The notes under the pieces are model-generated. The model was not told where the DNA came from. It saw only the letters and a list, made by a program, of their open reading frames with translations, and searched no databases. This document shows, piece by piece, positions 57,735 through 64,000 of a DNA stretch of 64,000 nucleotides. Every line of letters begins with the position of its first letter. Positions within the stretch are counted from its first letter, which is position 1. The stretch is taken from IMG/VR virus record IMGVR_UViG_3300035698_028866, positions 16,527 to 80,526 of that record. One strand, given 5' to 3'. The DNA comes from a virus. The translations under genes were made by a program, and so were the position numbers.

Positions 57735-58970
57735 CTACGCTTTAAGCTGTTTGGCCCAAGCTGCCAGCCCTCCGATTATCTCATTGAGTTCAGCAACGCC
57801 CAGCTGTCTTTTAGCTATGCGGCTCAACTCATCAATAGCGGAGAGATCCAACTCTGTGTTCTTATCATAGCCTAGCGCGACAAGAATATCATCGAGCTTT
57901 TTTGCCCTATTCTCATCGTGCTGAACCAAGCCTTCCAGCATCTGAGAGTAATTCATCGTCTCTTTTGACTCTTCCATGTCTTCGAGAACGTTTTGGATTA
58001 CTCGCCGGTTAGTTTTTTGACGCTTCTCCTCTCTGGTCATAATCTGATCAAAGTCCTGGCTGTACACCTTGTCCGACCAGAACAGGTCAAAGTCAGCGTT
58101 CGGAACTCCAAAGCTTTCCTCGCTGTCGAAGTTTATCTCTTCACCATTCTCATGACACATTGCGATTATCCAATGTTTCATGAGAACCTTTTCCATGATT
58201 CTACGCGCATGGCTATCAATATGGCCAATGCACGTGGGAAGGCGGTTATCCTTGAGCTGTGTCAGACATGAGGGACTTTTTGACTCAAAGGCACAGGGGA
58301 AGCTTTGAAGCAAATCTCGCTCTGCAGAGGACAACTTCGTTATCCCCTTTTTTCTTTTCTCTGAGTTAAAATCTCCGCGCTCATAGCGATCGAGCAATGC
58401 TGGGTTCTGAAGAAGCAGCTCAAGTTTCTTCGCCTTTTCCCTATAGTAAATTGCGGTATAGGTTGCGTTTTTTTGAATCATGTTGTTCCCTTGGATGAAA
58501 CAGGCTTGCTTCGCAGCGGGATTATACCTTGCCTTTTCTCCGTGCGTTAGTCTTACCGCCCTGCCATCTTTGGTCGTAAGGCCTGCAAATGCCCAACAAG
58601 GAAGGAGCCCAAGCCGATGATCAAACAGGCTCCGAAATCTAGCAGAGGCAATGTTGCCGAAGCCGTGGATCTTTCGCATCTCAATACACATGCCATCTTT
58701 AGAACCCAACTCATCAACCTTTTCGGCCTGGGCTTTTTTGACTGCTTTCAGTTCTGCCAACGCTGATCCAAACATGTTGGTAAAGATCTCTTTGATCTCA
58801 TCCGACGAAAGAATACCCAACTTTTTCAGGTATCTTCCCTTACTCCTAATCGAGGCGGTGATTCTCGTCTTTGCATCTTTTGCGGCATCATAAAACGACA
58901 ACTGATGTCTGAACATTTTTTGGATCACTGCATATGGGTCTACGTCGGCTTTCATAGCTTTCTTCGTCAT
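57735..58970 (-). CDS. Nop/IS110-Tnp-like RNA-binding protein without nuclease domain (TasA-like candidate)
   Basis: N-terminal coiled coil, then KIHGFGNIASA, CWAFAGL, G...YNP..K, YTAIYYREK, GHIDSHARRIMEKVLMKHW; no RuvC DEDD, no HNH, no IS110 catalytic SG. Confidence 0.75.
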   Translation of the reverse strand: MTKKAMKADVDPYAVIQKMFRHQLSFYDAAKDAKTRITASIRSKGRYLKKLGILSSDEIKEIFTNMFGSALAELKAVKKAQAEKVDELGSKDGMCIEMRKIHGFGNIASARFRSLFDHRLGLLPCWAFAGLTTKDGRAVRLTHGEKARYNPAAKQACFIQGNNMIQKNATYTAIYYREKAKKLELLLQNPALLDRYERGDFNSEKRKKGITKLSSAERDLLQSFPCAFESKSPSCLTQLKDNRLPTCIGHIDSHARRIMEKVLMKHWIIAMCHENGEEINFDSEESFGVPNADFDLFWSDKVYSQDFDQIMTREEKRQKTNRRVIQNVLEDMEESKETMNYSQMLEGLVQHDENRAKKLDDILVALGYDKNTELDLSAIDELSRIAKRQLGVAELNEIIGGLAAWAKQLKA

Positions 58971-58986
58971 AGCTTCCTCTACTTTC

Positions 58987-59463
58987 TTACAGGAGGTCCC
59001 ATTCTATTTGGCCTGTCTTTGTTAGTTCAAAGCCTAGACTGGGATTGACATTAGTACACCTGTGAACCGTTCCGTCGCCATTGAACTTCAAAAGGCGAGA
59101 GATGGCTTTTCTTTTTTGATTGAATACTGATACGCAGGCAGAATTCTCTACTACCTGAATACCCAATAAAACTGTTTTCTTCAGTTTTTTGAGCTTAAGT
59201 TCCAAAACACTTTCCGGCTCTAAGGTCTCTTCTGCGCTGCCCTCAAATTCAACCTGCGGCGAACGCTCTGGAATGTAATCTCGATAGCGTATAAGCTGAA
59301 AGGGCAAGTTTGTGTTTATGTCCCGGCAGCGTGATAGCCATCCGTCTGCCTGGAACGTTATAAGACGAGAACGCGGAAAATGCATACCGGGTTCCTTGGT
59401 GTCTACACTAACTGAGACACCGCCTAAGCAATCTTTTTCAAGTTTTAGTTTTATTGCTGCCAC
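58987..59463 (-). CDS. Hypothetical protein with two internal repeats (L.L....SV....SRL..F..DG...RC..N..L.F.L)
   Basis: AGGAGG RBS, GTG start. Confidence 0.65.
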   Translation of the reverse strand: MAAIKLKLEKDCLGGVSVSVDTKEPGMHFPRSRLITFQADGWLSRCRDINTNLPFQLIRYRDYIPERSPQVEFEGSAEETLEPESVLELKLKKLKKTVLLGIQVVENSACVSVFNQKRKAISRLLKFNGDGTVHRCTNVNPSLGFELTKTGQIEWDLL

Positions 59464-59571
59464 CTCCTGATTCAGTTAAAAAAGAAGGGTCTTTTAGCTC
59501 CCCCAAAGCAAAAACCGTTACATACTTTTTTTGAACGTTCAGTTCTTAAAGTATGCAACGGTATACAGTGT

Positions 59572-62874: not shown

Positions 62875-63193
62875 TGTTCTGGGTCATAAAGGTATGCTTG
62901 TGCTGTTGAATATACCTCAAGAGGCATTCAGCAGAACAAACTAATATCGCATAGTTCTGTTGCAGTATAAGCCCACGTTTGGCTGCAGGGAAGGCTTTTA
63001 GAACCTTACACTCTCCCAGCACGATCGCATGCTTTCCGGCAAGAAGAAGATCTCCACAGACGCTACAACGATTAGAGTCTTTCTCTCCTACCCGAGCTGT
63101 CATAGGAGGAAGCTCTCTTTGTAGAATTTCGTCAATGTCGCCTAAAAATCCCTGCATACCCTTTATTATATGATGCGCACGACTCATAATCAA
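62846..63193 (-). CDS. Zinc-finger hypothetical protein
   Basis: CSVCG...VCSAEC. Confidence 0.6.
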   Translation of the reverse strand: MIMSRAHHIIKGMQGFLGDIDEILQRELPPMTARVGEKDSNRCSVCGDLLLAGKHAIVLGECKVLKAFPAAKRGLILQQNYAILVCSAECLLRYIQQHKHTFMTQNNDEIRIKAE

Positions 63194-63197
63194 GCTT

Positions 63198-64000
63198 CTT
63201 TAGGTGGGAGTGGTGGGAGAAGAATTTACGCTTCTGAAAGTCAAACTTGACGATCTTCGTCCCACACACCCACTCCTAAAGTAGAAACAGAACACAAATG
63301 GAGCAAGAGAGAAATATTAGACCAGGGTGAAAGTTTCGTGCTGTGATTTTCTCTCCTGCTCCAAAGCTGTAAAAAGAACAGAAAGACATAGGAGACATCT
63401 GTGCTCTTTAGCGAATATCACAATTGATGATAGTCTCCTATGCTTTCTGTGTCTAAAGAGGGAAGGGCAATAAGAATATTACGACGAACGAACTTTCTCT
63501 CCTTCGAATTCTTATTACCCTAAAATATCAAAACGGAGCAAGAGAGAAATGTGAACGAGTATGAAAGTTTTGTGCTGTGATTATCTCTCCTGCTCCAAAG
63601 CTGTAAAAATAACAGAAAGACATAGGAGACGTCTGTGCTCTTTAGCGAATATTCTCTCTGACGATAGTCTCCTATGCTTTCTGTGTCTAAAGAGGGAAGG
63701 GCAATAAGAATATTACGACGAACGAACTTTCTCTCCTTCGAATTCTTATTACCCTAAAATATCAAAACGGAGCAAGAGAGAAATATTAGACCAGGGTGAA
63801 AGTTTCGTGCTGTGATTTTCTCTCCTGCTCCAAAGCTGTAAAAATAACAGAAAGACATAGGAGACATTTGTGGTATAGCGAATATCACAATTGATGATAG
63901 TCTCCTATGCTTTCTGTGTCTAAAGAGGGAAGGGCAATAAGAATATGACGCAATCTGAACCTCAAAGGTTTTGAATTCTTACTACCCTAAAATATCAAAA
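63198..64000. ncRNA. Stem-loop dual-spacer guide-RNA array (TIGR-like), at least 10 units, runs off the window end
   Basis: Hairpins at 63198-63281, 63299-63363, 63378-63450, 63464-63521, 63535-63596, 63612-63684, 63698-63755, 63769-63831, 63847-63917, 63931-63988; every loop reads T-N9-YGA-ANNT-N9-YGA. Confidence 0.8.
63300..64000. repeat. About 234-bp higher-order tandem repeat (three hairpin types A-B-C, x3)
   Basis: GGAGCAAGAGAGAAAT starts at 63300, 63535 and 63769. Confidence 0.95.

What the first reader, a model, noticed from the sequence alone, without database searches (positions are those of the whole stretch)
57735..64000. Candidate phage RNA-guided system: nuclease-less Nop/IS110-like protein plus a dual-9-nt-spacer stem-loop array (TIGR-Tas-like variant)
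Seen: a 411-aa protein with Nop/IS110-Tnp-like motifs and, 4.2 kb away, an array whose 10 loops each carry two variable 9-mers in a fixed frame. Established: TIGR-Tas systems pair Nop-domain Tas proteins with dual-repeat or stem-loop arrays that yield guides with two 9-nt spacers, one for each DNA strand; TasA members lack a nuclease. Inference: these two elements form one system acting as a programmable binder or repressor, or recruiting a partner. Atypical traits are the gene-array separation, four different stem scaffolds, and extra protein domains. The gene is second in a putative early transcription unit.
Basis: partly seen in the sequence, partly recalled or inferred. Interest (0 to 1): 0.92.

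Follow-up and report, generated by a model that had tools for sequence, protein, structure and literature searches.

The report
Divergent phage TIGR-TasA guide-RNA system
A salt-lake phage fragment carries a nuclease-less Tas protein and, 4.2 kb away, ten hairpins that each hold two short variable guides, so it is a divergent member of the recently described TIGR-Tas RNA-guided DNA-binding systems rather than a new kind of system.

Summary
Both parts of the observation hold. ORF 57735-58970 (-) is a Tas-family Nop-domain protein. A profile of 28 remote homologues matches it at E 3.7e-20. NCBIfam TIGR_Tas_endo gives 9e-16, below its cut-off. The best structural matches are TasH and TasR (Z about 16), then IS621 (Z 11). 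The fold starts at residue 1, so there is no nuclease domain, which makes it TasA-like. Residues 276-411 are an unexplained helical tail.

The array at 63198-64000 (-) has ten hairpins on four unrelated stems. Every loop fits UCR-N9-A-NNU-UCR-N9-A-N. Variation between copies is concentrated in the two guide segments (Fisher p 1e-14). This is the stem-loop TIGR layout.

It differs from described arrays in four ways:
- The box pair is U-A (UCR/A), not C-G (CNA/YG).
- The inter-box loop is 3 nt.
- A 234-nt three-hairpin super-unit is triplicated and recombined.
- Seven ORFs separate the array from the gene.

The window ends at the contig end, inside the array. No second Tas gene and no self-target occur in the 80.5-kb contig. 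No close relatives exist, so gene-array co-occurrence could not be tested.

Verdict: a divergent TIGR-TasA system, probably an RNA-guided DNA binder or repressor. Moderate interest.

The parts
57735..58970 (-). tasA-like gene, 411 aa (P0001). Residues about 1-275 form the coiled coil plus Nop C-terminal domain, with an insertion at about 190-245. There is no N-terminal nuclease.
   Evidence: hhalign against a profile of 28 homologues that excludes this protein: probability 99.3, E 3.7e-20, residues 65-272. NCBIfam NF052498 TIGR_Tas_endo: E 9.3e-16, 58 bits, below the 100-bit cut-off. Foldseek top 10 are all TasR/TasH. VIA Z 15-16 over model residues 1-298, matching TasH 66-300 and TasR 112-303.
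57738..58145 (-). C-terminal extension of the Tas protein, residues 276-411. It is helical and acidic and has no known family.
   Evidence: No Pfam hit. No usable Atlas match, TM below 0.5. pLDDT 41-83. It lies outside most of the Tas structural alignments.
63198..64000 (-). Stem-loop TIGR-like array: ten hairpins, cut by the contig end. Three 234-nt super-units (A-B-C) occupy 63296-64000, followed by hairpin D.
63931..63988 (-). Hairpin A1. Loop frame 63974-63945; guides AAACCUUUG / GAUUGCGUC.
   Evidence: dG -20.6, z -4.95. It has an extra G-U pair in the stem on the - strand only.
63847..63917 (-). Hairpin B1. Frame 63897-63868; guides UCAAUUGUG / CUAUACCAC.
   Evidence: z -5.3
63769..63831 (-). 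Hairpin C1. Frame 63815-63786; guides CAGCACGAA / CCCUGGUCU.
   Evidence: z -5.7
63698..63755 (-). Hairpin A2. Frame 63741-63712; guides AAGGAGAGA / UUCGUCGUA.
   Evidence: z -5.3
63612..63684 (-). Hairpin B2. Frame 63664-63635; guides UCAGAGAGA / CUAAAGAGC.
   Evidence: z -4.0
63535..63596 (-). Hairpin C2. Frame 63580-63551; guides CAGCACAAA / UACUCGUUC.
   Evidence: z -5.7
63464..63521 (-). Hairpin A3, identical to A2. Frame 63507-63478.
63378..63450 (-). Hairpin B3. Frame 63430-63401. It is a chimera: guide A of B1 with guide B of B2.
   Evidence: (z -4.65)
63300..63362 (-). Hairpin C3, with the same guides as C1. Frame 63346-63317.
63198..63281 (-). Hairpin D1: a long imperfect stem ending 11 nt before the ATG (63187) of the first downstream ORF. 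Frame 63253-63224; guides UCAAGUUUG / GAAGCGUAA.
   Evidence: dG -33.9, z -4.5
59131..59170 (-). Doubtful eleventh unit inside ORF158, just upstream of tasA: UCA-N8-A-GAAU-UCU-N8-A with a 9-bp stem that includes 3 G-U pairs. About 15% likely to be real.
   Evidence: z -2.8. It fails 3 of the 9 fixed positions of the frame.

Best explanation
This is a stem-loop-type TIGR-TasA system carried by a large phage from a salt-lake metagenome.

Proposed mechanism:
1. The - strand of 63198-64000, and further units beyond the contig end, is transcribed in the same direction as all the genes.
2. The transcript folds into hairpins. Each loop presents two guides of about 9 nt, and each guide is preceded by a box-C-like UCR and followed by a box-D-like A.
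3. The U of each box C pairs with the A of the other half's box D. This replaces the C-G pair of canonical tigRNAs.
4. A dimer of the 411-aa TasA-like protein binds one processed hairpin.
5. The two guides pair with opposite strands of an approximately 18-bp DNA site.
6. With no nuclease domain, the complex blocks transcription or replication at that site, or recruits something through the C-terminal tail. It does not cut.

Shown here: the Tas fold and family membership of the protein, the absence of a nuclease domain, the hairpins, the dual-guide frame, and the concentration of variation in the guides.

Inferred: transcription strand, protein-RNA pairing, processing, dimerisation, DNA binding, repression and the targets.
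For: Protein:
- A profile of 28 homologues (28-43% identical over the core) matches P0001 at E 3.7e-20.
- The joint profile hits TaTasR 9MTY at 4e-60, TasH at 3e-42 and IS621 at 3e-4.
- NCBIfam TIGR_Tas_endo gives 9.3e-16 over 197 of 215 profile positions.
- Foldseek and VIA rank TasH/TasR first (Z 15-16), then IS621/ISCro4 (Z 11), then Prp31/Nop56-58 (Z 7.5).
- P0001 keeps all six invariant residues of the family alignment.
- It is the only match to the Tas profile in the contig.
- Its only phage hit by tblastn, in Microcystis phage Mvi-JY20, is followed directly by a classic 36-nt dual-repeat TIGR array. This shows these homologues are genuine Tas proteins.

Array:
- 10 of 10 loops fit UCR-N9-A-NNU-UCR-N9-A-N on four unrelated stems.
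- Guide columns vary 10-fold more often than the rest.

Strand:
- Stems A and C, and the A1 variant, have G-U pairs on the - strand that would be A-C mismatches on the + strand. There is no case the other way round (sequence).
- All genes lie on the - strand.
- A 3-nt motif 5' of each guide matches the known tigRNA polarity.

Function:
- TasA and dead-TasR ribonucleoproteins repress transcription in a guide-dependent way (bioRxiv 10.64898/2026.09.09.750476).
Against: - No RNA data are available.
- The gene and the array are 4.2 kb apart, with seven ORFs, a terminator-like hairpin (60194-60225) and promoter-like sites between them. They are probably separate transcription units.
- The contig ends inside the array, so another Tas gene upstream cannot be excluded.
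- The box motifs (UCR/A) are outside the seed set used to define stem-loop arrays (CNA/YG), and the inter-box loop is 3 nt instead of about 4.
- The NCBIfam score is below the curated cut-off.
- No close relative of the protein or of its neighbours was found, so co-occurrence of gene and array is untested.
- No target was found in the 80.5-kb contig at 2 mismatches or fewer.
- Folding energies alone do not settle the strand: B and C hairpins fold slightly better on the + strand.
Confidence: 0.78

Rival explanations
1. The array is a genuine TIGR array, but its cognate Tas protein is encoded beyond the contig end, upstream of the array. P0001 would then be an orphan or second Tas protein that uses other guides or none.
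For: Position 64000 is the contig end and CheckV puts completeness at 42%. The 4.2-kb separation with seven ORFs is long. Arrayless Tas clades exist in dense viral genomes (bioRxiv 10.64898/2026.09.09.750476).
Against: P0001 is the only Tas-like ORF in 80.5 kb. TIGR arrays occur at flexible positions, and the published survey extracted up to 10 kb on each side of tas (same preprint). One Logan contig leaves the array at the end of a C-type stem into unlike sequence. This hints that the array ends soon after the contig does, but it shows nothing about the genes there.
Confidence: 0.1
2. The hairpins are not guides. They would be a structured leader or sRNA cluster, for example attenuators, stabilisers or protein-binding decoys, for the downstream operon (ORF113, a PNK-like 549-aa protein, and others). 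The resemblance to tigRNAs would then be coincidental.
For: Hairpin D ends 11 nt before the first ORF of the block, with no T-run after it, so read-through into the operon is likely. No target was found. Guides are partly re-used between units, as ordinary duplication and recombination would produce.
Against: Four unrelated stems share nine constrained loop positions arranged as two symmetric halves. The rest of the loops vary freely, and 10 matches occur where 0.02 are expected. Variation is confined to the two 9-10-nt segments. A Tas protein is encoded nearby.
Confidence: 0.07
3. The array is read from the + strand as box C/D-like sRNAs, with each guide followed by YGA as in box D CUGA. These would direct a Nop5-like protein to RNA, for example for 2'-O-methylation, rather than to DNA.
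For: YG is the canonical TIGR box D. The habitat is hypersaline, where archaeal C/D sRNPs abound. The fold also resembles Prp31/Nop56-58 at Z 7.5.
Against: There is no box C (RUGAUGA) and no k-turn-forming element. No fibrillarin-binding N-terminal domain is present, and the fold starts at the coiled coil. The G-U pairs in stems A and C become A-C mismatches on the + strand. All genes are on the - strand. The Tas and IS110 matches are far stronger than the Nop5 and Prp31 matches.
Confidence: 0.04

Closest known systems
Stem-loop TIGR-TasA systems (Faure et al. 2025, PMC12045711, Peromyscus-gut TasA locus; Xu et al. 2026 bioRxiv 10.64898/2026.09.09.750476, BlTasA and MbTasA)
   Same: A Nop-domain protein with a coiled coil and no nuclease. 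Tandem hairpins with variable palindromic stems, whose loops hold two guides of about 9 nt, each between a 5' box C and a 3' box D. The array is not necessarily adjacent to the gene. It occurs in a phage.
   Different: - The box pair is U-A (UCR ... A) rather than C-G (CNA ... YG).
- The inter-box loop is 3 nt, against about 4 nt (a 9-nt loop repeat).
- The array is built from a triplicated 234-nt unit of three hairpins with recombined guides.
- The array is 4.2 kb and seven ORFs away from the gene.
- The protein has a 137-aa C-terminal helical tail and an insertion of about 55 aa.
- The protein sequence is very remote from every database protein (best E 5e-7).
Dual-repeat TIGR-TasR/TasH (TaTasR 9MTY; SpTasH 9W04)
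   Same: The best structural and profile matches of the protein, and the same two-guide logic.
   Different: Those proteins carry RuvC or HNH nuclease domains and cut DNA. Their arrays are 36-nt units with conserved edge and loop repeats and no long stems. They process their own RNA with a C-terminal Y/H loop.
IS110-family recombinases with bridge RNA (IS621 8WT6, ISCro4 9T56)
   Same: The same coiled-coil plus C-terminal RNA-binding fold (Z 11), PHROG 'transposase' 4285, and guide loops with paired short guides.
   Different: There is no DEDD/RuvC N-terminal domain, no sign of a mobile element, and the RNA is an array of many single-loop hairpins rather than one two-loop bridge RNA.
Archaeal and eukaryotic box C/D sRNPs (Nop5/Nop56/58, Prp31)
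   Same: A distantly similar Nop fold (Z about 7.5), and RNA with two guides between C/D-type boxes.
   Different: No k-turn boxes, no fibrillarin-binding domain, and Pfam Nop PF01798 was not detected.

Membership tests
TIGR-Tas system | Tas protein with the Nop-domain fold (coiled coil plus C-terminal RNA-binding domain) | tested here: met
   hhalign E 3.7e-20. Profile to 9MTY 4e-60. VIA Z 15-16 to TasH/TasR over model residues 1-298. Foldseek top 10 all Tas.
TIGR-Tas system | NCBIfam NF052498 TIGR_Tas_endo at or above its curated cut-off (100 bits) | tested here: not met
   58.4 bits, E 9.3e-16, covering profile positions 15-211 of 215. The match is significant and near full length but below the equivalog cut-off, so this is a divergent relative and not a named equivalog.
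TIGR-Tas system | Tandem units that each carry two short (8-12 nt) spacers, each spacer flanked by a box C (5') and a box D (3') motif repeated symmetrically | tested here: met
   10 of 10 loops fit UCR-N9-A-NNU-UCR-N9-A-N. Variation is confined to the spacers.
TIGR-Tas system | [quoted passage not shown] | tested here: not met
   No register on the - strand gives CNA-N9-YG (read). Boxes are UCR and A. The C-G pair is replaced by U-A in both halves, a covarying change of the kind PMC12045711 says occurs.
TIGR-Tas system, stem-loop class | Each spacer pair enclosed by a palindrome forming a stem of at least 5 bp, with stems that differ between units | tested here: met
   Stems of 14-19 bp (and about 25 bp for D) of four unrelated sequences; each hairpin z -4.0 to -5.7.
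TIGR-Tas system, stem-loop class | Conserved CUU at the base of the stem (processing site) | tested here: inconclusive
   CUUU directly precedes stems C and D, and CUU lies 6 nt before stem B and at the 3' base of stem A. The linkers are U/C-rich, so this is not distinguishable from composition (sequence).
TIGR-Tas system | Array within the tas locus | tested here: inconclusive
   The array is 4.2 kb upstream with seven ORFs between. That is within the 10-kb flank surveyed by Xu et al. 2026, but no distance distribution was available to me. It is the only Tas ORF in the contig, and the contig ends inside the array.
TIGR-Tas system | Array transcribed and processed into unit-length RNAs bound by a Tas dimer, with guide-dependent binding of both DNA strands | not testable with these tools
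   No RNA run holds the stretch. This needs pull-down small-RNA-seq and EMSA.
TasA subtype | No RuvC or HNH nuclease domain | tested here: met
   The structural alignment starts at model residue 1, matching TasH residue 66 and TasR residue 112, which lie after their nuclease domains. There are no Pfam domains. The C-terminal tail is helical with no match.
IS110 family recombinase | N-terminal DEDD RuvC-like domain plus C-terminal Tnp domain | tested here: not met
   The alignment to IS621/ISCro4 covers only chain residues 126-314. PF02371 was not detected in the contig and no DEDD domain was found.
Box C/D sRNP (Nop5-type) | Pfam Nop domain PF01798 and k-turn-forming box C RUGAUGA / box D CUGA in the RNA | tested here: not met
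   PF01798 has no match in the contig. No conserved RUGAUGA is present in the loops on either strand.

The most novel reading that the evidence does not exclude
The array works as the 5' leader of an operon whose second gene is a polynucleotide-kinase-like protein of 549 aa. Guide maturation in this nuclease-less, Y/H-loop-less stem-loop system would depend on phage-encoded RNA end-processing enzymes in that operon. The 137-aa C-terminal tail of the Tas protein would recruit a separate effector. Together these would make a multi-component TIGR system. Its guides would diversify by recombination between three-hairpin super-units rather than by spacer acquisition.
Probability: 0.12. Interest if true: 0.7.

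Novelty: new variant of a known kind. Interest (0 to 1): 0.45.

Why it matters
TIGR-Tas is a young family (first described in 2025), and its diversity is still being mapped with motif-seeded tools.

- **Detection limits.** This locus shows a working-looking stem-loop array whose box pair has switched from C-G to U-A and whose inter-box loop is one base shorter. Seeds such as CNA/YG would miss it. The gene can also sit several kilobases and several genes away from the array. Surveys that need canonical boxes or adjacency probably undercount such systems.
- **Box recognition.** The locus offers a natural test of how Tas proteins read the box pair.
- **Array evolution.** The chimeric guides (B3 = B1 + B2) give a concrete example of array evolution by segmental duplication and recombination. 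How TIGR arrays gain guides is an open question in the field.
- **Tool-building.** A TasA with different box requirements and an extra C-terminal domain could be a useful orthogonal programmable DNA binder.

Tried and rejected
- **Pfam and six-frame family searches.** Pfam gave no hit for P0001. PF02371 and PF01798 gave nothing in six-frame searches of the contig, and they do not detect P0001 either, so they were too insensitive to count.
- **Homologue searches.** The word-indexed search found none. Close-relative scans of IMG/VR with P0001, P0003 and the PNK-like neighbour found nothing.
- **Array pattern.** An exact scan of IMG/VR for the A-type hairpin found nothing.
- **Rfam.** Only sub-threshold noise (snR100 at 24 bits against 80 needed; mir-241).
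- **Self-targets.** Both strand arrangements, gaps of 0-3 and two spacer registers gave nothing at 2 mismatches or fewer. The 9 hits at 3 mismatches compare with 3-5 in shuffles.
- **Composite targets in IMG/VR.** Exact 18-mers gave 0 hits for C1 and 3 for A2. That is chance level for an 18-mer, and I did not follow them up.
- **Dimer prediction.** Complex prediction on two copies of residues 1-300 returned no verdict.
- **RNA runs.** No RNA holder was listed among the sequencing runs, and Logan contigs are short and at depth 2-5.
- **C-terminal tail.** The Atlas search had no usable hit.
- **PNK-like protein.** No relatives were found.
- **Other frame matches.** Matches at 36490 and 32597 (-) and at 5515 and 8288 (+) were rejected as chance. 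They lie in coding sequence, and the two that were folded had no significant hairpin, z +0.8 and -1.2.
- **Promoter-like sites in the array.** The repeated sites TAGACA-17-TATCAT and TTTACA-16-GAAAAT would start transcripts inside loops. I judged them by-products of the repeat.
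Full report
**Where the window lies.** The window is bases 16527-80526 of an 80,526-b IMG/VR virus contig that CheckV rates 42% complete, so window position 64000 is the contig end. All long ORFs are on the - strand. They include a 2750-aa fused multisubunit-type RNA polymerase with an intein-like insert. 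Logan contigs from several salt-lake metagenome studies hold pieces of the stretch at 99-100% identity and low depth. The element is therefore a large phage from a hypersaline habitat.

**The protein.** ORF 57735-58970 (-) encodes 411 aa (P0001).
- Pfam finds nothing. PHROGs gives 'transposase' phrog_4285 at 3.5e-8.
- An exhaustive HMMER search of 1.84 billion representatives finds only remote relatives (best E 5e-7; 28-43% identity over residues about 50-190). They are 190-400 aa long, and six of the ten scanned reach the Pfam cut-off for the IS110 C-terminal domain PF02371; none shows a DEDD domain.
- A profile of 28 of these, built without P0001, matches P0001 at probability 99.3% and E 3.7e-20 over residues 65-272, with an insertion at about 190-245.
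- The joint profile hits TaTasR (9MTY) at 4e-60, TasH at 3e-42 and IS621/ISCro4 at 3e-4.
- NCBIfam NF052498 'TIGR-Tas system RNA-guided endonuclease' matches at 9.3e-16 over nearly its whole length, but at 58 bits against a 100-bit cut-off.
- An AlphaFold2 model (pLDDT 72.9; above 85 through most of residues 60-190 and 250-280) has TasR and TasH as its ten best Foldseek matches, then IS621.
- VIA-align gives Z 15-16 to TasH/TasR, Z 11 to IS621/ISCro4 and Z about 7.5 to Prp31 and Nop56/58.
- The alignments run from model residue 1 to TasH residue 66 and TasR residue 112. The protein therefore begins where those proteins' nuclease domains end, which makes it TasA-like.
- Residues 276-411 are a helical, acidic tail with no match.
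- The same Tas profile finds no other ORF in the contig.
- The only isolated-phage hit by tblastn, a 241-aa protein of Microcystis phage Mvi-JY20, is followed directly by an unannotated 36-nt-period dual-repeat array, ATGCGAGCC-N9-ACGAAACCC-N9. This independently shows that these homologues are genuine Tas proteins.

**The array.** Tandem Repeats Finder reports a 234-nt unit present 3.0 times at 63296-64000. On the - strand each unit holds three hairpins with unrelated stems:
- A: AGGGUAAUAAGAAU
- B: ACAGAAAGCAUAGGAGAC
- C: GGAGCAGGAGAGAAA

A fourth hairpin, D, lies at 63198-63281 and ends 11 nt before the ATG of the next ORF. Each hairpin folds far better than shuffles (z -4.0 to -5.7).

All ten loops contain the same 30-nt frame: U1 C2 R3 N4-12 A13 N14 N15 U16 U17 C18 R19 N20-28 A29 N30. 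That is ten matches in 811 nt. The rest of the contig has four matches over both strands, with 3.2 +/- 1.6 expected. Those others lie in coding sequence, and the two that were folded (36490 and 32597) show no significant hairpin. Between the three super-units, 32 of 62 guide columns vary against 9 of 173 other columns (p 1.2e-14).

There are eight distinct guide pairs. Unit 3 is a mosaic: its A hairpin equals that of unit 2 and its C hairpin equals that of unit 1. Its B hairpin joins guide A of B1 to guide B of B2. This points to duplication and recombination rather than insertion of new spacers.

**Which strand.** Stems A and C each contain a G-U pair on the - strand, and the A1 copy has a second one. 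All three would be A-C mismatches on the + strand, and there is no case the other way round (read). The genes are all on the - strand. Only on the - strand does a 3-nt motif precede each guide, with a 1-2-nt motif following, as in known tigRNAs (CCA-N9-UG in TaTasR, PMC12045711). Whole-hairpin energies are not decisive: the A hairpins favour the - strand by 6-7 kcal/mol, while most B and C copies favour the + strand by about 2-5 kcal/mol. I put the - strand at about 85%.

**Comparison with described systems.**
- The 2026 preprint (10.64898/2026.09.09.750476) reports 2,559 such arrays. It notes that stems differ even within one array and that arrays lie upstream of, downstream of or inside tas. 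It shows that TasA and dead TasR repress transcription in a guide-dependent way.
- This locus fits that architecture.
- The box sequences differ. TIGRFinder seeds stem-loop arrays with box C CNA and box D YG, and in TaTasR the first C of box C pairs with the G of box D. Here the equivalent positions are U and A in all 20 half-sites, a double change that keeps the pair. The loop closed by that pair is 3 nt.
- Other differences are the triplicated three-hairpin super-unit, the 4.2-kb gap with seven ORFs, a terminator-like hairpin at 60194-60225 and promoter-like sites within that gap, and the long C-terminal tail.
- The seven ORFs include a 113-aa Cys-rich ORF, a 549-aa protein with a polynucleotide-kinase P-loop and a GNAT acetyltransferase.

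**What could not be shown.**
- There are no RNA data.
- No composite target (guide A + reverse complement of guide B, or the other arrangement) occurs in the contig at 2 mismatches or fewer. Exact 18-mer scans of IMG/VR were at chance level.
- One low-depth Logan contig leaves the array exactly at the end of a C-type stem (63362) into 174 nt of unlike sequence. Another carries a variant C2/A2 unit. These hint at a nearby 5' boundary and at further or variant units, but they are single contigs.

**Verdict.** This is a very divergent stem-loop TIGR-TasA system in a hypersaline phage. It most likely acts as an RNA-guided DNA binder or repressor aimed at host or competing elements. It is a variant of a known kind and not a new class. 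Its value lies in showing that box pairs, loop geometry and gene-array linkage are looser than current detection rules assume.

Noticed in passing
window 60191-60225 and 63398-63409 / 63631-63643: A 13-nt exact match links the loop of hairpins B2/B3 (- strand AAAGAGCACAGAC) to one arm of a palindromic terminator-like hairpin between ORF 60253-60798 and the GNAT ORF. It is out of register with the guide (7 nt of guide B plus 6 nt outside). About 0.2 such matches are expected in 7 kb, so it is probably chance.
   Followed up: partly
window 61225-62874 (-): A 549-aa protein with an N-terminal polynucleotide-kinase P-loop domain (NCBIfam TIGR01663 1.3e-13; Pfam AAA_33). About 400 further residues have no family and no detectable relatives. 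It is the second gene downstream of the array and could be an RNA-end-processing or repair enzyme.
   Followed up: partly
window 62846-63187 (-): A 113-aa ORF starting 11 nt after hairpin D. It is Cys-rich (a CxxC plus further Cys residues) and has no family hit, apart from a faint DUF7576 match.
   Followed up: partly
L002 6812-7834 (Microcystis phage Mvi-JY20, PP438412.1 21367-22389): A 241-aa 'hypothetical protein' is a Tas homologue. It is followed at once by an unannotated dual-repeat TIGR array of 36-nt period (ATGCGAGCC-N9-ACGAAACCC-N9, about 8 units).
   Followed up: partly
window 63362 and 63535-63798 (Logan contigs of runs X1, X2): An X1 contig diverges from the array exactly at the end of a C-type stem into 174 nt of unlike sequence. 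An X2 contig carries a variant of the C2/A2 unit with 7 changes, one of them in a guide. These suggest a nearby array boundary and extra or strain-variant units.
   Followed up: no
window 39347-47599 (-): A 2750-aa ORF matching phage multisubunit RNA polymerase beta-type PHROGs, with a LAGLIDADG homing-endonuclease segment (an intein-like insert).
   Followed up: no
window 63427-63922 (-): Sigma-70-like hexamer pairs recur once per super-unit inside the array (TAGACA-17-TATCAT at the B hairpins, TTTACA-16-GAAAAT at the C hairpins). They would start transcripts inside loops and are probably by-products of the repeat.
   Followed up: no
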